Shown: positions 19,801-59,830 of the stretch, in pieces
Layout: each line of letters opens with the position of its first letter
Position numbering within the stretch: position 1 is the stretch's first letter
Assembly (NCBI GenBank): GCA_010015805.1
Contig: ML978126.1
Span: 1,550,001-1,614,000, forward strand
Direction: 5' to 3'
DNA length: 64,000 nucleotides
DNA from: Rhizodiscina lignyota
Lineage: Eukaryota
The notes under the pieces: model-generated
Told to the model about the DNA's origin: nothing
Databases searched by the model: none
The model's input: only the letters and a program-made list of their open reading frames with translations
Position numbers and translations under genes: made by a program

Positions 19801-21006
19801 TCGGACATATGCCGAAGACTTTTTCGAATTAGTGACGACGAATCTAACGTCCAATTCTATCACCAGTGTTGGCAACCTTGCCCATGTTCACTTCGCATCT
19901 CAGATGTTCTCCCTACCTCTCAAGACTGTCGACCACCCGTACGGTATCCTCACCGAACACGAGATGTACATGGCCCTTGCAGTCATCTTTGTCTGCATCT
20001 TCTTCGACCTCGACCCAGCAAAATCCTTCCCGCTACACCTTGCTGCGAAAGCAGTCGCCGAGAAGCTTGGGAAGCTGATCGAAACAAATGTCCGGACTGT
20101 GTCGATGACAAGCTGGGTTCAGGGTGTTACAGACAAGGCGCAGGAGAATGCAGGCCCGCTCAAACAATGGGGAGTCCATATGATCAGGAGGTTATTGGAC
20201 AGCGGATTGAGCGTCGAGGAAGTGGCATGGAGCCAAGCTCTGCCGACTGCTGCGGCGATGGTACCAAACCAGGCGCAGGTGGTACGTAGTCTTCACTTGC
20301 TCCTTTCCTATGGTTACTGGTGTTGTTCGAGGTTGTCCAAGCTAATAAAATGACAAACAGTTCACCCAAGCCCTCGACTTCTACCTCTCCACTCGCGGCC
20401 AAAAGCACCTCCCAGCCATACAAAAGCTGGCTAAATCCTCCTCACTAGATTCCGACCGCGCTCTTCTCGGATACGTAATGGAAGGCATCCGCCTCAACGG
20501 CACCTTCGGCTCCTATCGCGAAGCCACCGCCTCGACCTCTATCCCCGACTTCTCGCCCGGTCTCGACCCAGCCGCCGCCTCGGCGGGTAAGAACGTCGAA
20601 GTCCACCCCGGCGACAAAGTTTTCGTCAGCTTTGTCGGCGCGGCGAAGGATCCTGTGATGTTTCCCGATCCGGAGGAGGTTAAACCTGACAGGCCGTTGG
20701 AGAATTACATTCATTACGGGATTGGGCCGCATGCCTGTCTAGGAGGACAGGCAAGTCGGGTTGCGCTGACGGCGATGATGAGGGTAGTAGGTGGGCTGAA
20801 TAATCTGAGGAGGGCGGAGGGGCCGAAGGGCGAGTTGAAGAAGATTCCGAGGCCGGGTGGGTTTTATGTGTATATGAGGGAGGATCATGGGAGCTATTTC
20901 CCGTTTCCGACAAGTAAGTTATCGAGAGCACTTTGTGAGAGAGTGTGCTGACTTGATTATAGCAATGCAGATTTGCTGGGATGGTGAGCTGCCTCCTCTG
21001 AAGTGA
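16831..21006 (+). CDS. Fatty-acid dioxygenase-cytochrome P450 fusion (Ppo family, PpoC/10R-DOX-like), many introns; alternative start at 16945
   Basis: Heme-peroxidase motifs WASLIIHD, SSYLDLSPLYG, YLRTIVNL and SAEFNLVYRWH; P450 domain with NQAQ, EGIR and HYGIGPHACLG; last exon ends ...CWDGELPPLK-TGA at 21006. Confidence 0.93.
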
Positions 21007-35118: not shown

Positions 35119-35845
35119 TTATACATTTTCGTCATTGGTATTTATGCTAACCATCTCGTACTGCCCGCCACCATCCCTCCCCCTTCCCCTCCCCCGTCCA
35201 CCACGAACAAAGCCCACGCCGTCCTCCTCCGTGACATCATTACCCGCAGGTAATGAGCTGTCCCGTCGGTTTGGCTCGCCGCCGGGTTTGCTGCTGAAGA
35301 AGTTGACAGGACGAAGCTCACGGTACTGGCAGGCCCACATGCCCAGTGATGTCATGAGTGCCGCGCTTGCGGCCTGCAGCGCCCACCAGAACCAGTTAAT
35401 CGGGAAGGAGCGTGAGTAGAGGCTAGTGATGATGAGATGGATGAAATGTATCGTGAGTGCGAAGTCGGGAATAAGCTTTGATCGTGCGATAAGGAGAAGT
35501 AGAGGTATGACGCTGCAAAGTCCAGTTAGCCTCTGAATCAGATCAAACGAAGCTGTACACGAGCATCCAAGAGCCAAAGGAAAGCAGAACGACTTACGCA
35601 ATAAGGCTGTTCAGCATCCACACCACGCCCAGCATCCATCCGATCGTGACATCGCCTCGCAGGCTCCTCCAGGAGAGCAGAAGATCGAGGCGCACCGGCT
35701 TGCCAGCAACGAGGGCAGTGAAGAGGATGAGCACGCCGGCAGAGAGGTAGTAGAGGAGTTGGAGGACTACGATCTGTCTGAGGATACGTAGCGGCGCGAG
35801 GTCTGTGAGGGCTCCTGGTCGAGGTGGTCGCCGCCGCCGAGGCAT
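35119..35845 (-). CDS. SYS1: Golgi integral membrane protein Sys1
   Basis: Two exons: PLRILRQIVVLQLLYY...LLSW...GW and IARSKLIPDFALTIHFIHL...WFWW...GMWACQYRELRPV. Confidence 0.9.
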
Positions 35846-39800: not shown

Positions 39801-41819
39801 TCAAATCTGATTCACGATCCAAATCATCGCACTAGTCAGCCCGCTCAAAATATAGCAAAATAGACTCAGTGTTCCAAAGACCAGCATCGGAATGCCAGAG
39901 AGTGTGATATGTCCTTCACACTGCGTCAGCATGCACATCTAAATCATCCACATAGACAGCAAACATACCGAAAAATCCTCCACGCCTTGTTATCGTTTCC
40001 CACAGTTCCGTCTTCATAATATCCGGCGCCGTATCATCTTTCCATGGCCCTACGAGTCGAAACTTTGTATTGAAGTTGACGCCCAGCGCCCACACTAGCA
40101 AAACCTTCCAACCATGCTGCGCGACTTCCCAGATGGACGGTGCCGACCCCACATCCAGTGCAAGTTGGTATGCGTACGACTCGTGGTCGACTCCATAATG
40201 TATTCGGGCAGTCGGTGGGGTGTGGAGGCAGTAGTTGTCTTCCGGCTTGAGAGCGTTCGGGAGACGGTGTAGGATAGCGAGCGTCCAGAGTTGGGCCTGG
40301 AATTCGGCGAGGGGTGGGATAGCACCTTTTCTACTATCAGTGACCATGACTAAATCTGAGCTTGTAGACTATGACTTTACCAAAGCTTGGTCTGACGAAG
40401 CCGATGAATCCAACACTGGGGTCATCATCTTTCCACACGGAGCGAATATTCGCCTGTGCTGAAGTAGGGTACGTTTCGTCGAGGAAGGGGAAACGCTGGA
40501 TATAGCCGGTCGCGAAAATTAATACGTCTGGCTTGCACTTGATGTCCCTCATTCTCTGGTACTCTGGCCTTCCGTTATCTTTGAAATGGACAACGCCTTC
40601 TTCATCGATGTACTTGGGCCAAGGAGCGAGGTCAATCTTTCGGTCTCTGGTGTCCGGAAGAGGCACTTGTATGATTCTCGATCGTATTCTTTGAAGCCAG
40701 GTGTAGTTGCGATAAGGGGCGCTGATGTATGGAATTGCCTTGTTTGACTTGTTGAACAAGACTCCAAAACGATTAGTAGAGAGCTTATGACGGACCATTC
40801 GTCACATTTTGAGAACACTCACTCTTTGAAGCATGGTACCGCTCTTTTGGAATTGTTCCAACCCATTGGTCCAGGCCGCCGCTTGTGCCTGACACTAGCC
40901 ACAGAGTGTATTTGATGAAGCGGTCGTAGTATATCCAGAGCAGCGGAGAGTCTCTTAGCCAGCGATGAACGTATGCCGTGTCGAATAAACTAGCTTGAGA
41001 TACATCGACTGGAACATTTAGAGGTTTGTTCGGATCTTCCATTCCGAATATCACCGGGTCTGGGACGCGCTGCATTTCAGTTAGTTCGTTCGAAGCAACA
41101 ATACATGGGGATACTACCTTTGGCGCGCAGAAAAAACCATCGCGATGGCACATCGTAACTGATTTTGTTTGGGATGTGACCGCCATGTAGCTTATGTCCA
41201 TCGCTGTTTCTCCGCTTCCCAGCACCATGATGCATTTGTCAGTTCCAAACTGCGTTTTTGATTTGAACTCAGAAGAATGCATGACGATAGGGACATTTGA
41301 GCTGCCCTCAATGTTCGGTATGTTTGGATCCACGTGGAGGCCTGAGCAGATTGCCACCGCGTCGCATTCGAAGTCGTCACTGGAACCGTCTTTTGAACAA
41401 AATGTGACAATATGACCGCCATTCTGTTTACGCCGGATTGATGTGACTTTTGTGGATAGGCGAATGTGAGGCCAGAGATTGAAGCGCGTGCAGTAGTTCT
41501 CGAGATATTTGCAATACCGCTCTGCTTGAAGAAAATCTGGCTCACCCACATCGCAGCGGAAGTCAGAGAACGTTGTCAATTGCTTTGACGATACAAGCTA
41601 CGCGCGATTAGCTTGCTATTTTGGTTTTGACAGAGCCATGTTGAAGAAATATACCTCAGCGTCTTCATATGTGCGATAACGGAACGTCCCACCGATCAAG
41701 TCTTCCGCTTCAAAAACATGCACTTCAATTGGTTTGATTTGAAATGCCTTCTCAGCAGCAAGTAGGTATTTTAGAGTAGCCAACCCAGAAGGGCCAGCGC
41801 CGAGGATGGCGACTTTCAT
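39801..41819 (-). CDS. Flavin-containing monooxygenase (FMO-like), multi-exon
   Basis: FAD motif GAGPSG, FMO motif MHSSEFK, NADPH motif GSGETA, FATGY, and a hydrophobic C-terminus. Confidence 0.9.
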
Positions 41820-43415: not shown

Positions 43416-44876
43416 CTAGTCTTCCTCGATAAGACTGACTGCGCGTCGGCCCCTCGGCTTAAATGCAACTGAGAAAGGCTTCGGCTTGCTTGTCAATTCA
43501 GATGTCATCTCCATGTCGTCCACCTCTTGTCTCACGCCATCCACGTAGGCAGGCTCGATGTCGAAGGCCCACAGCATGCGGGCGATGGCGATGAACAACG
43601 AGTTGACTGCGATGTGCCGACCAGGACATATGCGCCGACCAAATCCCCATGGATGTTGAGGTAATTTTGGATTCTCAAGCCACCGCTCCGGCCTGAAATT
43701 CTGCGGGTCTCCGTAGATCGACACGTCCATGTTTATGGACCAGAGATTTCCGATGACGATTGCTCCCTTGGGAATTCTGTAACCCAGATACTCATCATCC
43801 TCGGCTGCCGCATGTGGCACGCCTGCGGGAGTGATGTGCCGCCAACGCATTATTTCCATGATGAAGGCGTTGACATAGGGCAAGCGCTCCCTGTCTTCGA
43901 AGCCTGGTAGCCTTTGGACCCCAACGACACTATCCAATTCTGCTTGGGCGGCCCTTGTCTTCTCTGGGTGGTTCAGGGCTGCGAGGACGGCCCAATTCAG
44001 TTGTCCCGCGGTTGTCTCGAGCGCGGCGCTTGCGAGGATTCCTAATGAGTATGATAATTCGATTGTGGATAGGTCTTGGGCTTACTTGGATGTTGAAAGC
44101 TTTTGGGCTATGTTTTCCTCTCTGGCCTGAAGACCGTGATCTAGATCTTTCGCGTACAATCTTGACTCCATTTCGTAATATCTCTCCGCTGTTCGCTTCC
44201 ACGGTGCTAGAAATGGTGGAAGATAGTTCAAGATTGGAATGGCATCCACGATCCAATGGCCAACGCGGAGCGCCTTTACCTGGTTGCCAAGGACTTCATA
44301 GTTCTCTACGAAGGACTTGTCGTGGGGGCTTGTCACACGGAATCCATACATAACGGAGTATATCGCACTCGCCGCATACCGCTTGAAAGAAGTATCGAAA
44401 TCACCCGTCAATAGCAGCTCCTTCATAAGCTGCTTGCTCTCGAGATCCTGTTGTGGCCGATATTCCTGCGAAGCGGACTCATTCACCGCGCGGCCGACCA
44501 TCCGTTGGATCAGTCGCAGTTTCGGATCGTACTGGCGGAGTAGTGTATGCATTCCTTTCGTCAAACATTCGCCGGCCATTACAAGGCGTGGCCTGTTGCT
44601 GTAAATGGTACTGCGCTTGTTCAGTACGCCCTCGGCGGCGTCGGGCGTTCCAAGCACGACTATCGTATCCTTTCCAAACTGAACACTGTATATCGGACCA
44701 TACTGTTGAGTCCATCTCGCATACGTGAGGAACGGAAAGTCGATGGGCGCTTGGTGGAGGTTTCCGATAAGTGGAAGCCGGCGAGGCCCAGGAGGGAGTC
44801 GATGATCTCGTCGGCGCTCGTGAAGCCGAACTGCTATTAAGACAATAAGACTGAGCAAGAGGCCAATGGCCAACAT
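43416..44876 (-). pseudogene. Cytochrome P450, intronless, with one in-frame TAA at 44082-44084
   Basis: N-terminal anchor, PPGP, I-helix AALETT, EIMR, PERW and FGRRICPG all lie in one frame across the stop. Confidence 0.85.
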
Positions 44877-46452
44877 CTCTTTCTTCCTCCGTTCCAATCA
44901 GTCAACAATGAAGCCGCCTTGTTTAAAGCGCCTTCTAAAATTGACAGTCTGTCGGTTGTGAGTAAGCGAAGGCTTAACTATCTCTTCAGAAAGGCCGTTG
45001 CGGTCTAATTGGCGTGATCATCGGTTCTACTGTGCTCCTTCTCAGCCACAGAGACATGGATACCATGATGGGTCTACGTCTGCGATATTGCTTGACCTGT
45101 ACTCCATCATGATATAACCCTATCGGTGGGGTCTCGCAGAATATGAGACACTGGCGTCCTACGATCAGCTCAATAACCTATGTCTGGATATACCCGAATC
45201 CTAGCGGCAGATTTCTTATTGGAGGTTAGGAATAAGTAATGGGGCCTAAGTCTGATCGCATTTGGCACGGCTATCGGCAATTTCAAAGAGGGAAATGCAA
45301 CTTGCGTCGACAACATCCTGAACTGTCGCTGCTATGTTGACAATTAGATCTTCGGTAAGGTGTATACACCAGTTGTTGCCTTTCAGTTCTGACTGCCACA
45401 GCTCCAGGTATGACAATATCGATGCTCCCTTGCTATATCACGTCAGCCTGCGCCACCGACTCGTCCGTTAGTCACGAGCTTGTCTTTCATCGTGCAGAGC
45501 TTACTACCGTACATCCACTTAGCACTCACCTGTATCATTGTTCAGTGTCCCGGTCCCGGACCTCTGCTCTTCCTTATGACCATCGCGTCGACGCCATGCT
45601 TAAGCCCATTGTATCGATGTTACAGAGGGTTGGCAACCTTGTCTTTGTTGGTGGCCTCCTTCGCCATCTTGCTGCGCTTTGTTTCGAATTATATCGTCTT
45701 CGGCTAGATTGTCATGATGAGCTTCTTGAGTACAGCTGGTGCTTCGTCCTTGTGTAATAGCTTGTCATATCAAGTCAGTCTGACAACGATGTCGTCTTAA
45801 CCATGCTGTCGATTAGAGCTTCAATGCCATTGTTTACATCTTTCTTAAACTCGTTGTATTTCCAAAAACGCCGACTCTCTTTCTTCTCGACTCCCTTGGT
45901 CTGCTCTCGCTCGAAGGATTGGTTCGTACTGATGGTTCATGATATGGTGCTGTTCGCGGAAGCAAGAATATCTTTTGTGGATACACGATCGTGTTGCTGT
46001 TTTGTGTCCATCACGACCAGCAACAGTTGATGTTTTTACAACCATTGGTTCGAACCCAATTGAAGGGAGTGTGAGATGCTTTGGGAGAGGCAGAGCCTTG
46101 CAGGAGGCCTTGTTGAAAACATGGACGCAGGATATCTAAACGGTAGAGTCAGTCGGGGCCTTGCAGAAATGTAAACAAGTCACGGAAGATGGTCAAGTAG
46201 TCCAAGGCTCAAGGCTAACAACAGATAGTGACAGCTGTTCCGCATTCTAGACTATGATGGTGATCCAGCTGTGGTAGCACTAGGGCGCATCTCAGAGTGT
46301 GGCTATTCAGTTCTTGATTCGTCAACGATCAGCTGAGCGCGCCGTGGTCACCCGTGGTGCTGTCCTTACCACTGGGAATTTGAGGTTAATCGCCATCCAG
46401 CGGCCCGCGAAAGAACTAAGGACCACGAAGGTGCTAGATACCTTTCTCAGGA

Positions 46453-46460
46453 TATATAAG
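46453..46460 (+). promoter_or_regulatory. TATA box of U2-like gene A
   Basis: TATATAAG about 44 nt upstream of the U2-like 5' end, followed by a CT-rich tract. Confidence 0.6.
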
Positions 46461-46496
46461 CTCGCGGTTCTTCGCCCTTCCTCCTCTTTTCTTCTT

Positions 46497-46684
46497 CAGT
46501 TCTCTTTGCCTTCTGGCTTAGATCAAACGAAGATTTTGTTCTTCACAGTTTAATCTCTGTGACAAGACTACGGTCTTTTCCTTGATTATTCAAATATTTG
46601 GAACCAGGTCGGATTCCTCTGTGCTTGCGCACGTTTCCTGCCACAGTGTCGCCGGTATTGTACTACCTCCGGCTGACGCGAACA
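46497..46684 (+). ncRNA. U2: U2 snRNA-like gene, variant A (branch-recognition sequence GAAGAU)
   Basis: Stem I TCTCTTTGCCTTCTGGCTTAGATCAA; stem IIa TCACAG-TTTAATCT-CTGTGA; stem IIb AAGAC-TACG-GTCTT; IIc complement GATTA; Sm-like AATATTTG; GCTTGC at loop III; stem-loop IV with ATTGTACTACC; about 188 nt. Confidence 0.85.
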
Positions 46685-49600
46685 TTCTTTTCTCATTGCT
46701 GCTTCCGCCTTGTGCGGGGGCCTGACGAAGAAAGATCTATTCCTGCCTTGTCTTTTTGTTGTCCTTGTTGTAGTTATTATGACTAGGTGGTTTGGCCTTC
46801 ATGACGCGCGTACCATTGTGAGAGGGTTGAACATTTATGAAGGATCTAGTACATATGCACCTCGTAAGAAGGAGGGCAGCCTGCTTTGCAAGAGTGATAA
46901 AGGCCTCGGAGTAATTTAGACAGTAGATGCTTTATGGAAGAGAGCATTGATAATACTAAGAACGCTTTGATGTTAATTACCTTTTCCAAACAAAGAATTC
47001 AGTGGGAACAAAGCAGTAAGGTTGACTAGAACCATTGCCACTGCCCATTCAAAATAGAGTCGCATTATGATAGTGATCCTATGATTTTCTAAGAGCTATT
47101 GGTGTTCAGTTGGCAAACCGCGACGGAGCGAGAACTGGCTTGGGCTACAGCATTCCGTCTGCGGAAATTTGTGCCAGCTGTAAGCCATTCCACATTCAAA
47201 GCAATAGAAGCAAGCTCTATTGCCTCATAAGGTATTTTAAACCGGTTCCCACCCGGATTTCGACCTTTATCGGTAGTGTAACGTCGCCCAGAGCTACAGG
47301 AGACGGCGTTGAAAAGCGGCCCCTTCACCAAAACAACATTACCAATTCTGTTCAGAGCTCAAACGACAAGTACGTGCCCTATCAATACTGCAAGCACGTG
47401 AATAGACATCAACCAAGACTGAAAAGAACCGTTCTTCAGCTTTCTCTGGAGTTTGTGGCAAACCTTTGCTTATCTCGGACTCGGAGAGAAGGAGATTCAC
47501 GAGTTTGTCCAGCTGCGCGCGCAAATTGAGCGGCTATTGACCCAAACAAATCCAAACTCACACAATAGAAGACCAATATCTAACCAACCGAATTAAAGTC
47601 AGAGGAGTAACCGTCTGTGGTTACTGCTGTAGTTACCCTCAACAAGTCGATTCCCCGACCTCTCTACCGTCCCCACCCTCCGCGCCTTAAAGGCTAGCTC
47701 ATACCGTACACATATTTATGGATATCGAAGGCATGTATATATCTGGGATACGCTGAACTCATCGTCAGAAGGAGAATGGAATCTGTGTGCATGGCTGGCA
47801 TCCAGGTGGTTTTACAATATTGGAATCGCCTGCAAAGAGAGACCATATTCAGAAGATCTGAACAGCGAATGCAAGGCGATCAAGCGCTGTTAAGCATGAA
47901 GTTCTGGCTCTTAAAGGTCTATTCTAACGCTGGTGGACTTGGTCTTTGGAGACTCGATCGTGAATTGTTTGTATTCGGCACACTTGGTGAGTTTCTTCGC
48001 TAGCGCATCGAACACTGCTTTCCAGAAGAAAGACTTGATCCTTTGCGTTGATGTTTCCGATATTACGCAATACAAGAAATCATAAAAAGGACGTAGAACC
48101 ACCTTGCCACCTCTTACTACTCAAGTCGTATATTAAGAGCAATATTAACTTGTCTTCTTAGGTTTAGAGAACTGAGTACAGTCTACCTTCGCAGAATCTA
48201 TCTCTGCTATAGTCGTCAGACGTCCTTTCTCAAGACTAACCGACCAATTCTAGTACATAAAGACCCTTATCCTTATCTCTCCCCAGAGTCAAACAATGTC
48301 ACAAAATCCCGATGCAGGATTTATGAACAGTCCCAACTCCGCGCCTTTCTCACCGAACCCTATTTCCGAACGGCGCTTTATCGAGAATCTGTGCTGTCAA
48401 CTACAAAGTTCGACAAACTTGGCTAGAGCAACTCAAGTCATATGGAAAGGGCGGAGGTGGAAAGGATCTTTGCAACTCATGACGATTACGGATGCCTAGT
48501 GAGGAAGATACTCTGAGACAAGAATTGGCGAGGACTTTGCAAAAGATCCATCTTGCTCAAACTACTCTTGTGGAGTGATACTAAGAAGAGGACAGAGGTT
48601 CTGCTTTGGGAGTCGGATACAGTGCATGGAAAGTGGAAGCTCAAATAATCAATTTTAGATTGCCACTACTAGCAAGGCGTGTATCTAGATCAAGTTTAAC
48701 TCTCTAATAGTCCTAAATCTGAAATATGTACTGAATCACAAGCGGATGGAAAAGAATCCTTTTCGACTACTCTTTAGCTCAAATCTATCCTACGCCGCTA
48801 AACGGCGACTTTTGCTTTTGTATGGCTGCCCATCCTTATACATTCCGTCCAGATCAGCGTCCGCCCGTTTATTGACCTGTTTGAAGAAATGTAAGGCTCG
48901 ATAAATGTCTCGTCTTTCGTCGACATGCGTAGGTAGGTGAGAAGGAAGTGTGATCGTCTTGGTGGAGCAATTTGAACTGCAAAAGAATCAGGCAAGCTTC
49001 TCGGCCTGAAAACTGGAAGCCTGCACTATCTGCGGCGTACATGGCTCTGTTAAGTATAATCTAGTCAATTATGCCTTTTCGGAATGACTATAATGCTTAG
49101 GGAATGTCAGCACGTTCTCTGTATCTTTGCATTTGTGCTGAATCGAAAGGCTGTAGCAGCGTCTTGTTATAGTCAGAGAAGAACGCGCTTCTGGGACAAA
49201 GTCCGCCTTCTGATATTGAAGAATATGATACTTGTCATATCTGACAGAGTCGAACTGACTCGAAAGAGCTGGCGAAATGCTTAGGGTGGCCAACACAAGC
49301 ATTCTGCCCTCCTTTTCAATTGGCTAGACTCCCGGCGACGAACTCAATTAGAAGCTCTATAACCGCTATCAATGCCAATTTCCGACCAAAGGTATGTATT
49401 GGGGGGAGGAAGATCCGTTTGCGATCGAGAGAGGAGTAGGCGGCTGGTTGAGTCGTTTAAACTGGGTGGCTGTGGCGCGCGACACAGTTATTGAGTTGAA
49501 GTGTGCGGAAAGTGTAATGTACGTCAAACCTAACAACCGCAGCTTAGGGAAAGAACTAAGCACTGTGATGTATCGAGAAATTTCGTTACTAACCGCCGGA

Positions 49601-51017
49601 TAGTAGCGGCCGATTGACTGACTGAGACTGCTGGTCACTTCGCTCTGATTGGTTGAAATGCTTTCCCGTTTCGCTATGGTCCTTGCTACGACTGTAGCAT
49701 CGGAGAGGGTTTCAAATCAATTCGAGAAGCTTCACGGAGAACTTAATGTTTTGGAATCTTCAAGGCTTGTAAGGAATCAAATGTCGTTTACGGGGTTGAT
49801 GTCTGTAACTGGTGATTGTTCAAGCCTCTGGAAAGCCTCACTACCAAGCGAAGCGGCGTGTAATTGTAGCTAAGTAGCAGAGACGCTGAATTCTCTTACA
49901 ATGTTCTACTCTTTATAAGCCTTTTCGGCGTCTCCATTGTTGATATGGGTCCACTTTCGCTGAACGCCCATTCATCAGCACTGGAAAATAGTCTACAACG
50001 GGCCTCAAACTGAGACCCTTGATGGATCAACACTTGGAAGATTTCGTATGACTCGAACCTAGCGAAGAGTACGTTAATACCGAGCAAAGCCGATATCGAG
50101 TAAGCCTCTCTTATGAGACTGGTGAACTGTTTGCATTGACGTCGCATCTCCGCAGAGGGAGTCAAGGCGCTTAAGTGTACAGGTAGTTGTCGATGGTAAT
50201 GATTGGCATTAAATTGATGACCTCCGGATATGGGAACACCATGTCATTCTTGGTTTTGTTACTATCTCATTCATGCTGAAGATTACGGAATAAGACTTCG
50301 TGGCGAAGGACTGTATTGGAGGGAATGTCAAGATAAATTGTCGTCGACTGGTCCACCGTCGCAAAACAAGAACGCCTGCTATCGAATCTCGATTGGACAA
50401 GGCGAAAAGAGAGAGCGAAAGGATATCGAACAAAGCTGTAGATCAAAGGATTATTGTAAAGGATGTACAACTCGAGAGTAGGCAACCGATATCACGGCCC
50501 TTAGGTTTACATTCACGGCGCCCATATCCGCAAGGAAAGTGCATTAATCTATCGTTTAAAGACATTAACTACAAGCATTGGACTGTATAAGAGTCCTGAG
50601 ATATAATTATTTAATTCCGATAGGTCTAGCAATGCAAATATCATGACCAGTCCGTGAGCCTTTTCCTCGCCAGCATTACCAGGAGTCAGAGACTCCACAG
50701 GCTACATTTTCAGGGTTACATAAATAACATCCAGTCCTAATTGGTTGTGATCATTGTAGAAAAAGTTTTTCGTATAGTAGAACTATAGAAGGCTTCTTAT
50801 ACACACAAGAGTAAATATGCAAACGGAGAGCAAAGCTTCTAGGTCAATACCGTTACGCACACAAATCACCAAACACTAAGAAGCCTATGTAAATATAACC
50901 ATATCATAAACCCAAGAGAAAGAGATCACTATGTATCTCCAAGAGTAAACAAGATTCCAAATCCATTTTCTTCCTCATGCGCCTGTTCGGGACAGACAAA
51001 ATGATGAAGAAAAAAGT

Positions 51018-51210
51018 GGCCAGGCGTCAGAAGACGGTAGTGCAAGGTCAACGACACCAGGAGCCTTTAATCCAGCACGTAGCGCTTTCAATGGCTCCGA
51101 AAACAAAAAATTAAGCATAATCTTGATCACGCCGTAGCGTGGTGACAGAGATTAAACTGAAAAGAACGAATTATTCGCTTTCTCAAAGCCAAAAGGCAAT
51201 GAGATCGCTG
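51018..51210 (-). ncRNA. U2: U2 snRNA-like gene, variant B (branch-recognition sequence GAAUAA)
   Basis: Stem I TCTCATTGCCTTTTGGCTTTGAGA; GTTCTTTTCAGTTTAATCTCTG; stem IIb CACGC-TACG-GCGTG; GATTA; Sm site AATTTTTTG; stem III GGAGCC/GGCTCC; loop IV TTGCACTAC; about 192 nt. Confidence 0.85.
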
Positions 51211-51247
51211 GAGAGAAAAAGAAGTCGAAGAGGGGAAGAGGAGGTTG

Positions 51248-51255
51248 TTTTTATA
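51248..51255 (-). promoter_or_regulatory. TATA box of U2-like gene B
   Basis: TATAAAAA about 45 nt upstream of the 5' end, followed by a CT-rich tract; same geometry as gene A. Confidence 0.6.
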
Positions 51256-52461
51256 CCCAGAGACAGAGAGAGCTTGGGCCCAGTGCCAAGAAGGAGCTAT
51301 CCCCTTTGAGGTATGTGCCATGGTCTAGGGTGACGTATTAGATGCGTCGTGAAGAGTCTAGGATTATAGGCAGTGTAGGAGTGTATTTGGCATGTGATAC
51401 AAAGCTACGTGACGTTTAGGCTAATGTTTACCAGGTGTCACTCACGTTTATGTGGGCCCTTTCCATGCTAGAAGTGTATTAAACTCATGGCTTTGCTCTT
51501 TATCTCTGGCTTTCCAGTGGCAAAGACACTCATTGGCTGCTAGGACCCTAAAGTTACTCACTGTCCTACGTGACGTACCTGTTCATGCATCACGGACCCC
51601 TTTTTAACTTTTACAGCCATTCCACGGACATCCAAAAGGTGTTGGGGTTGTCTAGTGCAAAAGAAATAGTTGTCATAATCTCACCAGCTAGGATTTCATT
51701 GGCCAAGCGAGTAGGTACGTGAAGTATGGCCGTTATGTGTCGTCAGATTATGTCAAGTTTTGCGTGATTGTGGAATTAGCTGGAAGATTGGGCGCCCACG
51801 TAGAATATGGGCTCCCCGGAAACCTGTAGGTTAAGACTGGTATCTGTTCGGTAAATAAAGAAACTTCTGGCTGCGTAGAATTCCGTTGGTGTGAACACTT
51901 GTTTGTCTAGTCCTTGGCAGGCTGGAGGGACTACTCGTTTATTGGTTCGAGTGCGCTTTGACCTTAATGAATGCTGGTTGTGTGGTGCTTATCCGCTGTG
52001 GGCAAACTATCACTGTAATCGAACTATTACTGCACGGAGATTGTGTAGTTTGGCGTGCGCATGTAGGCAGAGTATAATGATTGCTCTCTAGTGAGTAATC
52101 AAAATAAACTAATTGAACAGACGCTGTAGTAAAAGCATTACAGGTCCAAAGAATTTATCGTGACAGAGTTTATTGCCAAATAAGCATGCAAGACCATGTT
52201 GTATACATAACCGAACATGGGAACTCCCAGCACGCCATCGCATTGAATCCACAGCCCACTGCTCTAAGAATGCCTCAGAGGATGTCGAGCAATTCCACCC
52301 TCTTCTACAGCCTCCATCCATCCTATGGGACTAATTGAACTACCACAGGCGATTTTAATCTACAGGCTCAGGGACCCAAAACGTCTCAATACCCATCTAG
52401 CAAACCCAGAAGAACCATTTCGTAAGTATCAGCCCCAGAGGGCTTCCAGGTTGATCGTATG

Positions 52462-55400
52462 TTAAGATAAAGATGCATTGCATTCGTCCATATTGCTTCG
52501 TTGTCTACAACTCGTATTGCCCAGGTCTGCGAAAATAGGACCCCAAGAAGCGAAGCTGTCCATGCGCCACCATATCGAAGCACTCCAGTCCGCACCTCGC
52601 GGTTTCATTGCGGTTTGATCGTCCATGCCCCAAAGAACTCTGAGCCTAAAGAGGCTTTCGTTTGTGTTTGGGTTTGGCGCTTTTGCCATCTCCGTGTAGT
52701 TCGTGAACGCAGGGAGGTTCTGGGAGGAAATGTGGATGGGTGTGGATGGCTGGTCGATTTGTTCCGGCCGATTGGGAGGATGTCCATTTGCGAAAGCTAA
52801 GGTGGAATTATTTCGTAAGATTACTTCGGCGTGGCTGGAAACCGTCCAGTTCTCATGCACGCTTGTCTTCTGACATTCTCCACAAGACTAAGATAGTCAG
52901 TTAGCAAGAACATCACGAATAGGGCCAGAAATCTTACTGAATGTAACTCATTGAGGAGCTCTGCTCCTCTGGACAGGCGGCCACGGACACCAGCAACTTG
53001 AGTATCAAGATTCGCTGCATCTATCAAAGGCGAGCGGAAGAAAGAGGAAGAGAAGTCGCTCGGCTGTCGATATATGGGCATCGATTCTTCTTGCCTTATC
53101 GTCGAGACCGTGATGATGGCAGCAGCGTGCTCTTCAATCAGTGATTTGTTCTTTGACTGACTATTGTTATGGTCCCAGCAGAGCGACTGGGCCCAGATAA
53201 ATCGTAATTGCAATCGGAAAGCAATCTCAATTGCTTGCCTTAATAGTGGAGATAGAATGCTCATGCTGCACCATTTCTTCAGACGGAGGCGTTGGATCAA
53301 CCACTCGCTGCAAACTTTGCGGCTTCCACCCAATCCAGTCAGATCCTCCAATGCTGCATATTTCGGTGTGACAGGAGGAGGGCCAATCTCTTTCGGGACA
53401 ACGATTCGAACAGCGAAACCGTGGTTGGCATAAGGTCTGAATTCCAAGAGTAAAGGCGGAAAAGTCTCCGTCGAGTAACCGAACAACTTCGTAAAAGGGG
53501 CTCCCATCCATCGTTTGGTACAGGCAACCTCTCCTTTTGGTGGTATTGCAGATTTTATTTTAATATTCCACCAGAAACATAGTACGTCCGAAGGCAACGC
53601 CACCATTGTATCGAAGTCATCCAATGGATGAAAAACAGTTCGATTGTTGGCAGGTGTTCGCGTTCGAAATGCAGCTTTCACCTTCTTTGGAAGCTGACGG
53701 AGAACGCCGAGTCTTGGCATTAGCGGTGGAGGCACTAGATGCATTGCCCTTGAGAGGCCAGAGACCACCTCTGCAGCCGAAGGACGCAAAGTTGCGTCAA
53801 TGTGAACCATGCGTGAGCAAATGTCAAGCAGGCGTTCACTGAGAAGAGCGGGTGCGCCTCGAACCTTTTTGATTTGATCCTTCACGTACTCTGATACAAA
53901 GCCGAATCTGCCTCTAGTGCCTCCAAGAACATTGGAGGTGGACTGTTGGAGTCTGAGGATTCGCCGAAAGTCGAAAATAGAGGAATGTGTCATGACGATG
54001 ATTAGCTCCAGGAAGACACAGCCAAGTGAGTAGATATCAGACTTCTCTGAACGGTGACTTGAGAGAAATACCTCCGGCGCGGCATATGTTGGAGTCAGAG
54101 TGTTCGAGAAGCGCGTTCCGGACTCGATTTGCTCAGTTGTCGAGGTGCCGAAGTCTGCAAACAAGAAATTGGTCTTTGCAATTAATATATTTGCTGGCTT
54201 GATGTCGTTATGGAGGAGGTTGTTGCTGTGGAGATAAAGCAGTCCCGTTGCGAGCACTATCAAACCACGAACGAGCTGATGTAAATTCACGTCAGGATGT
54301 TTCCACGGGCAGGAGGTAATGATCAAGGTCAAAGTCGGCAACGGGCTCCATTAAAAGGCTGAGATTCCATTCAGAAGCGGCGACGATGCGCACACAACTA
54401 GAATGGTCGACTTGCTTCATGATGTCGGCCTCGTGGCGGAACCGGCGCGCAGCATCTTCATCAGAATCCTGCCGATAGTGATATTTACACGCATACTCCT
54501 GCCCCGTTGGACTGTAAACAACCTTTTCAACTTTCGCAAATGTTCCCTTCCCCAGTTGCCCCCGGCTGAGTAACATCGAGTTCCAGCCGTTGAGATGGAA
54601 AACGAGAGCGCCAACAAGGTCGATGTGCTGCGTAAAGGCGACAACTGTTGCCTTACGCTCTCGGCCTGTTGGCGAGCGATGAGAGGATTTCGATGGGGCG
54701 TGCGAATGGGTCGAATGTGTTGGGTTGGATTGGGAGGACAGCTGGGAGTTAGGACTGCCACTTTTCCGTGTGCTATCTTCTTGAACTGAGACTTTCTGCC
54801 CTTGCGGCGCTTCAATCAAATTCTCTTGAGATTGAGTGCATGTACTGGAGCTCTCTTCTGGCCACCTGTGGTTGTACTGGCTAACATCCTTCGTAATCTC
54901 CGGGAATTCGCCGTCAAAATGTTCCTTGAGGTGCCTCATCCTATCCTCGAAAGACTTGAACCGCGTGCCACCCCAGCCGCAGCGCTTCTCAAAGGTTGTC
55001 TGAAAGGAATATGTAGAAGCATCAACAACAATACCAATGGCATCAGTATTGAGGCGATGTGCTCGTGTTCCTAGATGTGACCTAACTTTGTCTCGTCGAA
55101 AACCGACAAACGGCTTCTCTTCCCCGTTGTCGAGACAAAGCTTACACACCCACACTTCTTGTGGTTGGCGAAGGACTTCATGCCGTATCCACAGATCTTT
55201 TCGTGTGAAGGATCGGCCACAGCCGTAGGTGCAGTGGTACGGTTTCGAGGGGTCCACTTCTTCCGGATGAGGGGTTTTGCAATCGTGCTCGCGGGCCTCT
55301 TCATACTTCTGGCGGACGAAGCGCCAAATCCTAGCCTCATAACTGTCATCTTCGTCAGAGAAGCTAATTGGCGCCTGCTGAGCTGGAGCAGGAGGATTAT

Positions 55401-56135
55401 GTGAAGACGGAGCTCGAGGTTGTTCCAAGCCTGAGAATGCAGACGATTTATTTCCAGGACGGAGTAGTAATGAACTGGTAGATGATTCCGCTTCGTTCTG
55501 TCGGTCTAGTTTCGCTTCTGCTGGCGTGTGCAGCTCGTTGTTTCCAAATTCGTCCGACCTCCACAGTTGAACTTCATCAAAAGAGCATCCCAAACTACTT
55601 GCCAGGCCTCTCAGCTGATTCTCAGAAGGTCGTCCATTATACTTCTCCAAAAAAGGTCGTATAACCCGGAGATCCGCCTCATTTATAGAATATTGCTGAT
55701 GAACTCTTTTGGCTGGAGACTTTCTTTCTGCATCTGCTGATGCCCTCGATCGCTTCGTCCCGCCCTCGACAATATTAGGCGCAAATTCCGGTGGAGTCTG
55801 AGAATTTGGCATTCGAAATGTGCCATTTTGACCCTGTTGAAAGAACGGTCGAAAGTCATTTATATTATTCAGGGATTCGATATTTGGGGAGGAAAAGGGG
55901 TCAATCAACAGATTCTGGCTGTAGAAGCCGCTGTCTCTCGACCGCCACGTGGCGTCGGGGTCACCATTATTGGGCATCTACAAGCAGTCAGTGGTCTGCG
56001 CTCCTCACTATCAGTAAGGGCATTATGGAGTTGGCGTACCAAAGCACTGGTGTGAGCCAACTCATTGTTTTGGTCTTCAGCCTCGTGCATGACTTCAGGC
56101 AACTCGGTGACAGCGAGTCCATTGTCTGCAGGCAA
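52462..56135 (-). pseudogene. Homeodomain-like/C2H2/Ser-Thr kinase/HET-like fusion, copy 1 (frameshift near 54310; true start uncertain)
   Basis: ORF 54292-55977 carries the homeodomain-like segment, C2H2 fingers, GKGTFAKV, YACK and the alphaC Glu. It continues in ORF 52821-54341 (HNDIKPAN, DFG, APE, HET-like). Introns 56039-55978 and 52937-52888 are both phase 0. Confidence 0.75.
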
Positions 56136-57114: not shown

Positions 57115-59830
57115 TCAACCGTCTTTCTTCAGAAGACTCCATGACATGCCATATGCAATATGAGATTTACAGTTGCAAGACAAGAAAAGGTACGGTCGAA
57201 CGGCGTCTCCAAATGAAGATGGCATGCAAATGCTCCAAGCTGTCAAAGAAATTTCGACCAGCAGCGACGACAGTACGGAGTGCTTCATACATCCGCACCT
57301 TAGCGGCGGAATAGATAACGCTGCCCAAGCCCCAGGGTCGGCTTCGCGATGTGGGCAGCGCTGTTCGTTCGGAAAGTCGGAGAAGGTTGTCGCCCATACA
57401 GCGGCGATGGTAAAGCGCAACAGCAACATTTAGGGAGATCGGAGTGCGGCTTGAGGATACGAGACCTCTCGGGATCAACGTCGACCTTCAGCCTCAAAGT
57501 GTTCTGATTACTGTTGCGAGCAGGTCGGACCAGGCGAACGCTGAGGTTGTTGGAAGAGGTAGAGTCGAACTCCAGCAGAATCGAGGGAAGTGATTGTGTA
57601 GATGAGGGAAGACTGGCCCGAGGCCAGCGACGACTATTAAGGTAAGCGCGCCGGTGTCTCCTGGAGCGCAAGATGAAGGGGGAGTCCAATCTAAAACTTT
57701 TATTGGCACGCTGATCGTACAATGCATTCATCGAGGAAATGTCGTCAAGATCTAGCGGAGACGAACCCAGGCTGGTGCGTTCGGGGTGGTCGCGGTGATG
57801 CAGCAAATCGGAAGTGTGAAAATGTTTCCTTGGTAGAAGCGATGTTGTGATGATGCGCATAATCTGAGTCAGAGACACAGTGACTTCAGCTGTAGTTGCA
57901 CGTTGAACAGGAATTGGATTAAGCATGCAGCAGCAGAAATCTGAGAGTCGTCCCGCACTTAGAGAACTCGTGTCGCCGAGCTTTGCCTTTATAGCCAGCA
58001 GCGTCCGGGTTATGAGCTCTGAACGAAGAACAAAGGCTCTGTTGTTGATGCGGTCGCCCCTAAAGGAACGGACTTTATTCGCATTTCGATGGCGCCGCGT
58101 ACGAATTCGCCTCGGTTTAGGCGACGGCCCACGGAGCATAACCAACGCAAGCTCCAAGAAAATGCACCCCAGAGCACAAATATCGCACTTGGTTGTGAGA
58201 TGCAAAAAGTCGGGGGTATCTGGTGCTGCATACATTGATGGCGATGGGCCAGACGTGGTAGTGTTATCGAGGCCGATGTACATTAAGTCCGTTTCATGAA
58301 TGAGGGTGTCAGCAGCTTGAACGTCGTTTTGGACCATATTGAGGTTGTGAAGATATGCAAGACCGCTGGCGATAGCAATGAGTGCGCGGATAAGTTGGCC
58401 GGGCCGAACATTGGGGTAGATGTCGTTCAGGAGTTGTATAATACTAGCATCCATGTTGAAAGGCCGGAGCTTTGTTGTTTGTCGGTGTAAGATCGACTTC
58501 CCAGCATGCATCGACAGGGCCCGTTGATGCGCGACATTTTCTACGCGAGCCGGTGTACCGTACCACAAAGCCTCCATGCTTCTCCATATTTCAGCCGAGA
58601 AGCGCAAGTGCGCCGCAAGACGCAGAAGGAAATCCATCTGAGAAGAGAGCGAATTATAAGTCAGACTAGCCATTCTCTGGTCGACAGTGTTGCTGCCCGG
58701 GCTAGCAGTGATCGAGTTGTTGTGATCGTTCAAGCTTGCGCCAATGTGTCTGCGCGGGCGGCGTCTTGTCCGAGGGGAATATGCATTTTGACGAGGATCA
58801 GAAGCGGTGGCCTGGTGGCCTGGCTTCTTTTTCCCAGCGATTCGATTGCGAGGCTCATAGTTATCAGGCCAGTTGCGACTGTATTGTGCGACATTGATTG
58901 CAGGATAGATGCAGTTGGAGTAATGTTCGAAACGCTTCGAACGGTTCACGAAAGACCTGAACCTGTAGCCACCCTGCCAGCGATGCGACCCAACGGTAAG
59001 CAGGTTTGGGTTGCATTGGGAGAGTGAACCAGTGAAAGCGACATCGAGGTCTTCTTCTTGCAACAAGTGAGCTCTGACTTTCAGGTAATGTTTCGTCTTG
59101 TCTCTTTTGAATGCGATAGGGGGGTCGGATCTCTCGTTCCTTCGGCGGGCAGGGTAAACCCAGATCTGTCGGGGCTGCCGCAGCGTCTTATGCCTTTCCG
59201 AGTTGTCCCTCTTCATCAAGGAGGAACCACTATTCCACATACATGGATGGGTAGTGCCACGCCGGCCATCCTCAGCTGAGTGTGAGCCACTATGGGGTTG
59301 CTGCGCAGGCTGCCGTACAAGCTGTATGGGCGTGAGTCTTGAAATTGGAAACTTGGTCGCTGGGCTCGGTAGGGCCTGCAATGCTCTGGTAGCTCGGTGC
59401 ATGGTAAAGTGGCGGTGAGTGAGAGACCGGTGAGGAATGGATGCCGCTCTGAGACTTTGATTCGCGTTGTCGATTACATCGTTGCCCGAGGGAGAATAAA
59501 TCGGTCGCTCAGCATGAAATGCGCGTCTGAAATCCTCACTCAAAGTCAGACTTCTATCTCCAGAGCAAAATGAGAGTCTCTGGTCCTGAAGGCCAACTTT
59601 GTTCGGGTATCTTTCCATCCAACCGCGCTCACGGGCGACATTCTCCTCTAATAGCTGAGCGCATGTTGCTTGAATAGGATTCTCTTAGTTTGTGGTTCAA
59701 CACTCCCAGGCTCATCCTGGAGCCTCATCACTCTTTCCACTTCGTTGTCTTTTCGTCCCACATGTGAAGCGCCTATGGCAGGCGGCCCCTGAACAGGCAT
59801 CAACGGGCTGGGAACATGTTGAGGGTCCAA
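57115..59830 (-). pseudogene. Same fusion family, copy 2: degenerate zinc fingers and pseudokinase
   Basis: 772-aa ORF is colinear with copy 1 (RHKTLRQPRQIWV, FKRDK, GLAYLH, YAAPD, DICALGCIFLEL, LPSILLEF). The HET-like tail is split across frames. Confidence 0.65.

What the first reader, a model, noticed from the sequence alone, without database searches (positions are those of the whole stretch)
46497..46684. U2 variant A keeps the U6-pairing core but is predicted to read AUCUU(A)C branch sites
Seen: GCTTAGATCA (the U2 strand of U2/U6 helices Ia and Ib) is intact, stem IIa is a perfect 6-bp helix, and the base of the branch-point stem-loop pairs as CAAA/TTTG. Positions 46529-46534 read GAAGAT, and the Sm site is the variant AATATTTG. 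Inference: A could enter a normal spliceosome with canonical U6 but favour CUUAC-type over CURAC branch points.
Basis: partly seen in the sequence, partly recalled or inferred. Interest (0 to 1): 0.8.

Follow-up and report, generated by a model that had tools for sequence, protein, structure and literature searches.

The report
Fungal U2 snRNA gene, recoded branch-site reader
This is an otherwise intact-looking copy of the spliceosomal U2 RNA gene in a fungus whose six-letter intron branch-site reading sequence has been rewritten, and it matters because, if the RNA is made, it would be a natural second reader for a different class of branch sites.

Summary
Window 46496-46687 (+) is a full-length U2 snRNA gene (Rfam RF00004, 112.7 bits). 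It has an intact U2/U6 helix I strand, a perfect stem IIa, GAAGAU in place of the invariant GUAGUA, and the Sm site AAUAUUUGG.

New findings:
- A TATA box and CT-rich leader are laid out as in canonical fungal U2 genes.
- A more decayed relative, B (51015-51205, -), shares 4 derived letters in the branch-point block.
- The one DNA run holding the locus has at least two further contigs with the same CGAAGAU. At least four carry the same Sm variant. So this is a multi-copy variant family.
- 0 of 118 metagenomic fungal U2 loci carry this block; 116 are canonical.
- A's changes cluster in the block: 6 of 11 columns against 3 of 45.
- A changed less than B since their split, 8 against 24.
- Paralogues show compensatory stem changes.

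Expression could not be tested, and branch-site preference remains inference. Only about 1 of 10 plausible window introns uses CTTAC.

Verdict: a real, probably constrained U2 variant. Altered branch-site reading is plausible but unproven.

The parts
46453..46459 (+). TATA box (TATATAA) of variant A
   Evidence: Read. It ends 38 nt before the AG of AGTTCTCTTTGCC. Among 46 distinct intronless canonical fungal U2 loci, 35 have a TATA-like element, at 30-55 nt. The layout matches canonical loci.
46467..46495 (+). Pyrimidine-rich leader between the TATA box and the RNA start
   Evidence: The same CT-rich tract is seen upstream of canonical fungal U2 genes and upstream of B.
46496..46687 (+). U2 snRNA variant A, full length
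   Evidence: Rfam RF00004, 112.7 bits, model 1-192 of 192. Fifteen canonical fungal loci score 135.2-163.9 bits.
46503..46522 (+). Stem-loop I; the loop reads UUCU instead of UUUU
   Evidence: Alignment. C at 46513 is private to A: all 5 other contigs laid there carry T. T is found in 85 of 99 canonical sequences.
46516..46525 (+). GCUUAGAUCA, the U2 strand of U2/U6 helices Ia and Ib, unchanged
   Evidence: Identical to the canonical fungal sequences.
46527..46537 (+). Recoded 11-nt branch-point block: ACGAAGAUUUU against canonical GUGUAGUAUCU
   Evidence: 6 of 11 positions differ (46527, 28, 30, 33, 34, 36). Each is invariant or nearly so in 99 canonical sequences. Four derived states are shared with B.
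46529..46534 (+). Branch-point recognition hexamer GAAGAU (canonical GUAGUA)
   Evidence: The same letters are seen in at least two other contigs of the genome run (records 2 and 3). 0 of 118 metagenome loci have it.
46543..46562 (+). Stem-loop IIa, UCACAG/CUGUGA, 6 standard pairs
   Evidence: It differs from the majority UUUCAG/CUGAAA (89 of 96 canonical sequences) by two double, pair-preserving changes. Whether this is typical of the lineage or specific to the variant is not known.
46564..46577 (+). Stem-loop IIb, AAGAC/GUCUU
   Evidence: The outermost model pair, C46563 with U46578, is non-standard.
46593..46601 (+). Variant Sm site AAUAUUUGG
   Evidence: A at 46596, where 97 of 99 canonical sequences have T. 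The same A is kept in records 3, 5, 6 and 7 of the genome run. Only record 4 has T.
46607..46642 (+). Stem-loop III
   Evidence: flags 2 non-standard pairs. Paralogues show pair-preserving double changes at 46609/46640, 46621/46630 and 46622/46629.
46645..46680 (+). Stem-loop IV, loop AUUGUACUACC
   Evidence: flags 1 non-standard pair. T at 46661, where 91 of 99 canonical sequences have C.
51015..51205 (-). U2 variant B, a more decayed relative in the opposite orientation
   Evidence: Rfam 79.8 bits. Its block reads GCGAAUAAUUC. Helix I reads GAGAAA, and stems IIa and III are mismatched. It differs at 13 of the 56 conserved columns. No other contig of the run lies on it at 80% likeness or more.
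51249..51255 (-). TATA box (TATAAAA) of variant B
   Evidence: It lies 39 nt from the AG. The upstream 60 nt of A and B score 17 against 8.9 +/- 1.7 for shuffles.

Best explanation
Variant A is a genuine, promoter-bearing and structurally intact paralogue of the U2 snRNA gene. It belongs to a multi-copy family particular to this ascomycete's genome. The family's branch-point recognition sequence has been recoded from GUAGUA to GAAGAU, and its Sm site reads AAUAUUUGG.

The most likely mechanism is as follows; every step in it is inferred.
1. RNA polymerase II transcribes the gene from its TATA promoter.
2. The RNA is assembled into a U2-type particle.
3. It pairs with ordinary U6 through its unchanged helix I strand.
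4. It forms a branch helix best with yUCUU(A)C-type sites (core CUUAC), because A34 and A37 now pair with U where canonical U34 pairs with R.

Shown: the gene, its anatomy, its copies, the clustering of changes, and its slower change than B.
For: 1. Full-length U2 by covariance model, with only 4 non-standard pairs.

2. The TATA box and CT-rich leader sit at the same spacing as in canonical fungal U2 genes.

3. The changes are concentrated. 6 of the 11 block columns differ, against 3 of 45 other columns that are at least 95% conserved (p = 9e-4). Two of those 3 form a compensating pair in stem IIa. Outside the block A is about as conserved as functional U2s: it deviates at 11 of 111 columns conserved at 70% or more, the canonical median is 8, and 29 of 99 canonical sequences deviate as much or more.

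4. A and B share 4 derived block letters, so the recoding predates their split. Since then A changed at 8 conserved columns and B at 24 (Tajima chi-square 8.0, p = 0.005).

5. The one genome run holds other copies. Records 2 and 3, contigs of 23.5 kb and 8.1 kb, keep CGAAGAU. Record 3 also continues into the AAUAUUUGG Sm site. Records 5, 6 and 7 also keep A at 46596.

6. Record 7 differs from A by three double changes in stem III that preserve pairing. The expectation under neutral change is 0.12, so P(3 or more) = 2.7e-4.

7. Two of the six block changes, G31A and C40U in human numbering, turn the G-U and A-C contacts of the branchpoint-interacting stem into A-U pairs (stem as described in passages of PMC12407996).

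8. Engineered U2 with an altered recognition sequence is expressed and splices a reporter carrying the matching branch site (same passages). The principle is therefore established.

9. A CUUAC-type branch site exists nearby. The 54-nt intron at 18244-18297 of a haem-peroxidase/P450 fusion gene has CTTACG as its only yUnAy-like site, 10 nt from the 3' splice site.
Against: - No evidence on expression could be obtained.
- A scores about 40 bits below canonical fungal U2s.
- It carries changes at three protein- or structure-relevant sites that are 85-97% conserved: the Sm site at 46596, the stem-loop IV loop at 46661 and the stem-loop I loop at 46513. At columns conserved at 90% or more it deviates at 6 of 63, and only 9 of 99 canonical sequences deviate that much.
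- The recoded GAAGA can pair with the RNA's own UCUUC at -5.1 kcal/mol. That could hide the reading sequence and compete with stem IIa.
- Both uridines that are pseudouridines in canonical GUAGUA (recalled knowledge) are replaced by A.
- The paralogues differ from A by 4-17% and carry changes in helix I: record 2 at 46524 and 46526, record 3 at 46520. Duplicates drifting without function could look the same.
- At such low divergence, keeping the block in records 2 and 3 is expected even without selection.
- Branch-site motifs matching the variant are not enriched in the window. About 7-8 of 10 plausible introns use CTRAY.
- The relative-rate result could also come from gene conversion of A by canonical copies on both sides of the block.
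- Assigning differences to contigs rests on matching contig depths. One row of that table was not shown.
Confidence: 0.37

Rival explanations
1. A, B and the other copies are non-functional or decaying duplicates of U2. One complex mutation rewrote the branch-point block in an ancestor, and the dead gene was then copied around the genome. A merely looks intact because it is young or has been patched by gene conversion.
For: - Copies differ by 4-17% and carry changes in helix I.
- B is clearly degraded: 79.8 bits and 13 of 56 conserved columns changed.
- A has changes in the Sm site, the stem-loop IV loop and the stem-loop I loop.
- The two U-to-A changes make GAAGA exactly complementary to the downstream UCUUC. 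A template-switch event at a near-palindrome would produce this; that is my inference.
- Record 4 of the run (depth 265 against about 155) has a canonical Sm site and may represent about two identical canonical copies. Identical working genes beside diverged relics would look like this.
Against: - Clustering of 6 changes in 11 nt, with 3 in the 45 other conserved columns, is not what drift gives.
- A template switch explains only 2 of the 6 changes.
- A and B kept changing in the block after their split (2 private changes each) while A stayed nearly unchanged elsewhere.
- A changed a third as much as B.
- The TATA box and its spacing are kept in both A and B.
- There are three pair-preserving double changes in stem III between A and record 7.
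Confidence: 0.33
2. The RNA is made and constrained, but its recoded block does not select a particular branch-site class. It would act as a competitor or regulator that binds U2 proteins and U6. Or the branch site is chosen by proteins while the block is free to drift.
For: - The block kept evolving in both A and B after their split, with 2 private changes each in 11 nt, while the U6-pairing strand stayed fixed in A.
- The reading sequence can be sequestered in a hairpin in both A and B.
- No enrichment of complementary motifs in the window.
Against: - Records 2 and 3 keep exactly the same block as A.
- The stem of the branchpoint-interacting stem-loop is preserved or improved around the new loop (for the stem; sequence). 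That makes sense if the loop is still presented to introns.
- A particle that engages U6 but cannot form a branch helix would be expected to be harmful in several copies (inference).
Confidence: 0.17
3. The whole organism has switched its U2 to GAAGAU and has no canonical U2.
For: At 46527-46544, no alternative letters were listed among the contigs that cover the place, at a summed depth equal to about 4.7 copies.
Against: - The read-laying tool silently drops contigs resembling human DNA, and a canonical U2 5' half does resemble it. Its absence therefore means nothing.
- Record 4 has a canonical Sm site, and its last 4 letters do not fit A's block.
- About 7-8 of 10 plausible introns in the window use CTAAC, CTGAC, CTAAT or CTGAT.
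- 116 of 118 fungal U2 loci elsewhere are canonical.
Confidence: 0.03

Closest known systems
Canonical fungal (Pezizomycotina-type) U2 snRNA genes, Rfam RF00004
   Same: Same length and secondary structure, and an identical U2/U6 helix I strand. Stems I, IIa, IIb, III and IV are present, with the same TATA box plus CT-rich leader promoter layout. The nearest metagenomic canonical loci are 150 of 192 identical.
   Different: The branch-point block differs at 6 of 11 invariant positions. The Sm site is AAUAUUUGG, the stem-loop IV loop has U for C, and the score is about 40 bits lower.
Engineered orthogonal or suppressor U2 snRNAs. The Parker/Guthrie, Wu and Manley, and Zhuang and Weiner experiments are recalled from memory. 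The modern version in PMC12407996 was read as passages.
   Same: A U2 that keeps everything except the branch-point recognition sequence and therefore works with a complementary branch site.
   Different: Those are laboratory constructs with 1-3 changed letters and a matching reporter. Here the change is natural, larger (6 of 11), present in several copies and joined to an Sm-site change. No matching intron class has been shown.
Variant snRNA genes and pseudogenes of animals. For human U2 and U1 variants, PMC8457000, 10.1101/2020.01.24.917260 and PMC13172311 were seen as search listings and abstracts only.
   Same: Multi-copy families with sequence variants of uncertain expression, some shown to enter spliceosomes.
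   Different: In my recollection those variants do not carry a coherently recoded branch-point hexamer. This family is fungal, and its changes are concentrated in that hexamer.
U12 snRNA of the minor spliceosome
   Same: A U2-like RNA that reads a different, pyrimidine-rich branch site. The U12-type site ending in CCUUAAC is recalled and resembles yUCUUAC.
   Different: Rfam keeps only the best match within one clan where matches overlap, and here that match is U2, full length. The helix I strand is that of U2 and pairs with U6, not U6atac. It is not a U12.

Membership tests
U2 spliceosomal snRNA (Rfam RF00004), as a homologue | Covariance-model score above the curated gathering score over the full model | tested here: met
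   112.7 bits against 46, model 1-192 of 192.
U2 spliceosomal snRNA, as a canonical working U2 | Invariant branch-point recognition sequence GUAGUA | tested here: not met
   GAAGAU at 46529-46534. 116 of 118 fungal loci carry the canonical block. A should therefore be filed as a U2 paralogue or variant, not as a canonical U2.
U2 spliceosomal snRNA, as a canonical working U2 | U2 strand of U2/U6 helices Ia and Ib (GCUUAGAUCA) | tested here: met
   46516-46525, identical to canonical fungal sequences.
U2 spliceosomal snRNA, as a canonical working U2 | Stem-loops I, IIa, IIb, III and IV | tested here: met
   The alignment shows 4 non-standard pairs in all: one in IIb, two in III and one in IV.
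U2 spliceosomal snRNA, as a canonical working U2 | Sm site A-U(4-6)-G flanked by purines | tested here: inconclusive
   AAUAUUUGG has an A interrupting the U run at 46596, where 97 of 99 canonical sequences have T. Tolerance of single Sm-site changes is recalled from yeast genetics and was not tested here.
U2 spliceosomal snRNA, as a canonical working U2 | Stem-loop IV loop bound by U2B''/U2A' (AUUGCA...) | tested here: inconclusive
   The loop reads AUUGUACUACC. T at 46661, where 91 of 99 canonical sequences have C.
U2 spliceosomal snRNA, as a canonical working U2 | Promoter of the type used by U2 genes of the lineage | tested here: met
   TATATAA lies 38 nt upstream of the AG, followed by a CT-rich leader. 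Canonical loci have it at 30-55 nt.
U2 spliceosomal snRNA, as a canonical working U2 | Expressed, trimethylguanosine-capped, Sm-bound and found in spliceosomes | not testable with these tools
   Only one run holds the locus and it is DNA. No RNA data were available.
snRNA pseudogene | Changes spread evenly over the gene, with loss of promoter or structure | tested here: not met
   For A, the changes are clustered (p = 9e-4) and both promoter and stems are kept. For B the description fits better.
Altered-specificity (orthogonal) U2 | A class of introns whose branch sites match the altered recognition sequence and depend on it | tested here: inconclusive
   One of about 10 plausible window introns uses CTTACG. 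There is no motif enrichment. A whole-genome test was not possible because no genome is held.

The most novel reading that the evidence does not exclude
This ascomycete runs two U2 systems side by side. One is the canonical GUAGUA U2. The other is a natural orthogonal U2 family of about 4-6 genes with GAAGAU and its own Sm-site variant, using the same U6. The second system is dedicated to a minority class of introns with yUCUU(A)C branch sites. Branch-site choice would then be partly encoded in which U2 paralogue engages, and the paralogues' reading sequences (A: GAAGAU; B: GAAUAA) could diversify.
Probability: 0.25. Interest if true: 0.85.

Novelty: new variant of a known kind. Interest (0 to 1): 0.62.

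Why it matters
The GUAGUA of U2 is among the most invariant RNA sequences in eukaryotes. 116 of the 118 fungal loci fetched here carry it unchanged.

U2 genes with a rewritten reading sequence have until now been laboratory tools for proving U2-branch-site pairing. A natural, multi-copy, apparently constrained U2 family with that sequence coherently rewritten would mean that branch-site specificity can be diversified through snRNA paralogues within the major spliceosome. It would also provide a ready-made orthogonal U2 and branch-site pair in a fungus.

If the copies turn out to be silent, the locus is still a striking case of block-wise mutation in snRNA duplicates, and a warning for automatic annotation: Rfam calls both copies U2 well above threshold.

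Tried and rejected
- **Whole-genome search for all U2 copies.** No genome is held for this window.
- **Expression.** The run search listed one holder, a DNA run, and no RNA holder. Expression stays untested.
- **Canonical U2 of the same genome.** It could not be seen. That tool drops human-like contigs, and local alignments are clipped at the divergent block, so a part without cover says nothing.
- **Relatives with the same block.** A metagenome scan with a GAAGAT-specific pattern found 0 loci. No eukaryotic genome collection was available.
- **Earlier notes of this scan.** Nothing by place, sequence or words.
- **Literature.** Four full-text searches found no report of a natural fungal U2 with a recoded branch-point sequence. 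One search failed on a term that was too short. Supplementary files were not consulted.
- **A third copy at 47418-47446.** This is a 29-nt patch, 76% like B's block region. No U2 match appeared even at E up to 10, so I rejected it as chance or decayed beyond recognition.
- **Other snRNA variants near the locus.** None found at E up to 1 in 40-58 kb.
- **Crude count of CTNAY motifs in donor/acceptor context.** Too noisy to show any preference. The ORF-joining intron scans give only about 10 believable introns.
- **Repeat-induced point mutation as the cause.** Rejected, because 3 of the 6 block changes are transversions.
- **Flank comparison of A and B beyond -60 and +60.** No similarity above shuffles. 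This cannot date the duplication, because the duplicated unit may have been short.

Full report
**What is there**

Window 46496-46687 (+) is a full-length U2 snRNA gene. Rfam RF00004 scores it 112.7 bits against a gathering score of 46, covering model positions 1-192 of 192. A second U2 match, B, lies 4.3 kb away on the other strand (51015-51205, 79.8 bits). A more permissive scan of 40-58 kb found no other snRNA.

The window is from an ascomycete-like fungus:
- Pfam finds fungal-type kinases, P450s, proteasome subunits and a haem-peroxidase/P450 fusion.
- The nearest protein clusters for an M20 peptidase are from Ascomycota.
- A and B sit in an 8-kb stretch (44.9-52.8 kb) with no long ORF and no Pfam hit among the 7 largest ORFs I tested there.

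**Checking the observation**

- GCTTAGATCA at 46516-46525.
- Stem IIa, UCACAG/CUGUGA, at 46543-46548 and 46557-46562, with six standard pairs.
- CAAA and TTTG at 46524-46527 and 46535-46538.
- GAAGAT at 46529-46534.
- AATATTTGG at 46593-46601.

Between GATCAA and GTTCTT the block has the canonical 11 nt but reads ACGAAGATTTT instead of GTGTAGTATCT.

**How unusual this is**

I scanned metagenome contigs with the conserved flanks and any 11 letters between them. Of these, 116 have GTGTAGTATCT, one has GTGTTGTATCT and one has GCGTAGTACCT. None resembles A. A pattern specific to GAAGAT found 0 loci.

The nearest canonical locus is only 150 of 192 identical to A, so no close relative was available.

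In an alignment of 99 distinct canonical sequences, 56 columns are at least 95% conserved. A differs at 9 of them:
- Six are in the 11-nt block.
- Two are a compensating pair in stem IIa (46545/46560).
- One is in the Sm site (46596).

Six of 11 against 3 of 45 gives a Fisher one-sided p of 9e-4. The p is 0.043 if the 27 columns that my search pattern fixed are set aside.

Outside the block, A is about as conserved as a working U2:

| Column conservation | A deviates at | Canonical median | Canonical sequences deviating as much or more |
|---|---|---|---|
| at least 70% | 11 of 111 | 8 | 29 of 99 |
| at least 90% | 6 of 63 | 0 | 9 of 99 |

Fifteen canonical loci score 135.2-163.9 bits in Rfam. 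A is therefore about 40 bits low.

**Promoter**

Canonical fungal U2 loci have a TATA element, a pyrimidine-rich leader and then yyAGCTCTCTTTGCC. A has TATATAA at 46453-46459, 38 nt before its AG. B has TATAAAA at 39 nt. Of 46 distinct intronless canonical loci, 35 have a TATA-like element, at 30-55 nt. So A, and also B, keeps the signals of a transcribed U2 gene.

**A and B are related variants**

In the block B reads GCGAATAATTC. Four derived letters are shared with A (46528 C, 46530 A, 46533 A, 46536 T), and each copy has two private changes. The recoding therefore predates their split, with an ancestor close to GCGAAGAAUUU.

I then compared both against the canonical consensus at columns at least 70% conserved:

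| Region | Changes in A alone | Changes in B alone | Test |
|---|---|---|---|
| Whole RNA | 8 | 24 | Tajima chi-square 8.0, p = 0.005 |
| 3' half | 3 | 18 | p = 0.001 |

B also has GAGAAA in helix I and mismatches in stems IIa and III. So after the block was rewritten, A's line stayed far closer to a working U2 than B's.

Beyond about 60 nt on either side, A and B show no similarity above shuffles. This cannot be used for dating, because the duplicated unit may have been short.

**More copies in the same genome**

One public run, X1, holds the locus. It consists of DNA contigs totalling 34 million letters at a depth of about 155. Laid at 80% likeness or more on 46300-51400, 24 contigs fell on A and none but its own on B. 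I matched the listed differences to contigs by their depths.

- **Record 2** (23.5-kb contig) differs at 46499, 46513, 46524 and 46526 but not at 46529-46535.
- **Record 3** (8.1-kb contig) differs at 46520 and 46545 but not in the block. It runs on into ...GATTATTCTAATATTTGG, the same Sm variant as A.
- **Records 5, 6 and 7** are 3' halves differing from A by 9-17 letters in 102-122. All keep A at 46596.
- **Record 4** is a 154-nt unitig at depth 265. It is the only one with T at 46596, the canonical Sm site. Its last four letters do not fit A's block. It may be the canonical U2, present about twice.

All five other contigs covering 46513 carry T, so A's UUCU loop is private to it.

Stem III shows pair-preserving evolution:

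| Pair | A | Records 4 and 6 | Record 7 | Record 5 |
|---|---|---|---|---|
| 46622/46629 | U-G | U-A | A-U | G-U |
| 46621/46630 | G-C | no change listed | A-U | no change listed |
| 46609/46640 | U-G | G-C (record 4) | G-C | not assigned |

Three double changes in record 7 compare with 0.12 expected under neutral change, so P(3 or more) = 2.7e-4.

Caveats for this section:
- The tool hides differences within 30 letters of a contig end.
- One row of the table was not shown.
- The tool drops human-like contigs, so a canonical 5' half could not have been seen.
- Assigning differences by depth is my inference.

**Mechanism**

With canonical geometry, U2 5'-GAAGAU-3' pairs with intron 5'-AUCUU(A)C-3'. 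Including neighbours, 5'-ACGAAGAUUUU-3' pairs with 5'-AAAAUCUU(A)CGU-3'. Compared with CURAC, the key change is U instead of R just before the branch adenosine.

Passages of PMC12407996 describe the human branchpoint-interacting stem-loop as five Watson-Crick pairs plus one G-U, one U-U and one C-A contact, the last between nucleotides 30 and 40. Mapped onto A:
- A30-U40 and A31-U39 become Watson-Crick pairs.
- U32-A38 is lost.
- The loop becomes CGAAGAU.

The stem that presents the reading sequence therefore survives. The same passages show that a U2 with an altered reading sequence is expressed and splices a reporter with the matching branch site.

Against this, RNAfold prefers a GAAGA/UCUUC hairpin at -5.1 kcal/mol (11 of 200 shuffles fold as well), which would hide the reading sequence. 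B forms a CGAA/UUCG hairpin.

**Branch sites in the window**

A crude motif count was uninformative. Joining adjacent ORFs by GT-AG introns gave about 10 believable introns.

| Branch motif | Number | Introns |
|---|---|---|
| CTAAC | 2 | 6690-6756; 19791-19866 |
| CTAAT | 2 | 20282-20360; 40762-40822 (-) |
| CTGAC | 2-3 | 55978-56039 (-); 54276-54393 (-); possibly 14164-14238 (-) |
| CTGAT | 1 | 35533-35597 (-) |
| CTCAT | 1 | 44029-44085 (-) |
| CTTAC | 1 | 18244-18297, in the haem-peroxidase/P450 fusion gene |

In the last of these, CTTACG is the only yUnAy-like site, 10 nt from the 3' splice site. So canonical sites dominate, which argues for a canonical U2 elsewhere in the genome, and CUUAC sites do exist. 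ATCTTAC occurs 8 times on both strands together, against about 7.8 expected by my own arithmetic. TCTTACG occurs 7 times against 4.9 +/- 2.0. Neither is enriched. A sample of this size cannot test the hypothesis.

**Verdict**

- The gene and its recoded block are real.
- My odds that A-type copies are constrained, working RNAs are about 0.55-0.6.
- The main rival is that they are relics, at about 0.33.
- A working RNA whose block does not select a branch-site class is at about 0.17.
- A genome-wide switch of U2 is unlikely, at about 0.03.

I found no paper describing such a natural U2 in fungi. Supplementary files were not seen.

Noticed in passing
window 51015-51205 (-), promoter to 51255: A second U2 variant, B (79.8 bits). 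It has block GCGAAUAAUUC, helix I changed to GAGAAA, and mismatches in stems IIa and III, yet it keeps a TATA box at canonical spacing. It shares 4 derived block letters with A. No other contig of the genome run lies on it at 80% likeness or more.
   Followed up: yes
metagenome loci, e.g. L043, L044, L047, L053, L029, L075 (upstream 110 nt): Many fungal U2 genes in the metagenome loci carry what looks like an mRNA-type intron inside the 5' stem-loop I region. It has a GTAAGT- or GTACGT-like start, a CTAAC or CTAAT branch site and a YAG end just before CCTTTTGGCTTAGATCAA. A and B have none.
   Followed up: no
window 17902-20948 (+): A multi-exon gene fusing an animal-haem-peroxidase domain and a P450 domain (Pfam); from recall, this architecture is that of fungal fatty-acid oxygenases. 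Its 54-nt intron at 18244-18297 seems to use a CTTACG branch site.
   Followed up: partly
window 43419-44897 (-): A P450 gene read as two ORFs in the same frame, separated by a single stop at 44082-44084. A 57-nt GTAAGC...AAG intron (44029-44085) with a CTCAT branch candidate probably removes the stop. Otherwise the gene is broken.
   Followed up: partly
window 12862-15014 (-): A fungal gene with a T6SS Tle1-like phospholipase catalytic domain (PF09994, E 1.5e-60), split over at least two ORFs.
   Followed up: no
window 57303-59684 (-): A 794-residue open frame rich in R, S and P with no Pfam hit. Shorter ORFs lie on the opposite strand. It may be a spurious antisense frame or a disordered protein.
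   Followed up: no
window 47418-47446: A 29-nt patch, 76% identical to the reverse complement of B's block region. It lies inside a 150-codon plus-strand ORF. No U2 match appeared even at E up to 10.
   Followed up: yes
window 46529-46544: The recoded GAAGA is exactly complementary to the RNA's own UCUUC 6 nt downstream. The two U-to-A changes are what a near-palindrome template-switch mutation would create. This offers a possible origin for part of the recoding.
   Followed up: partly
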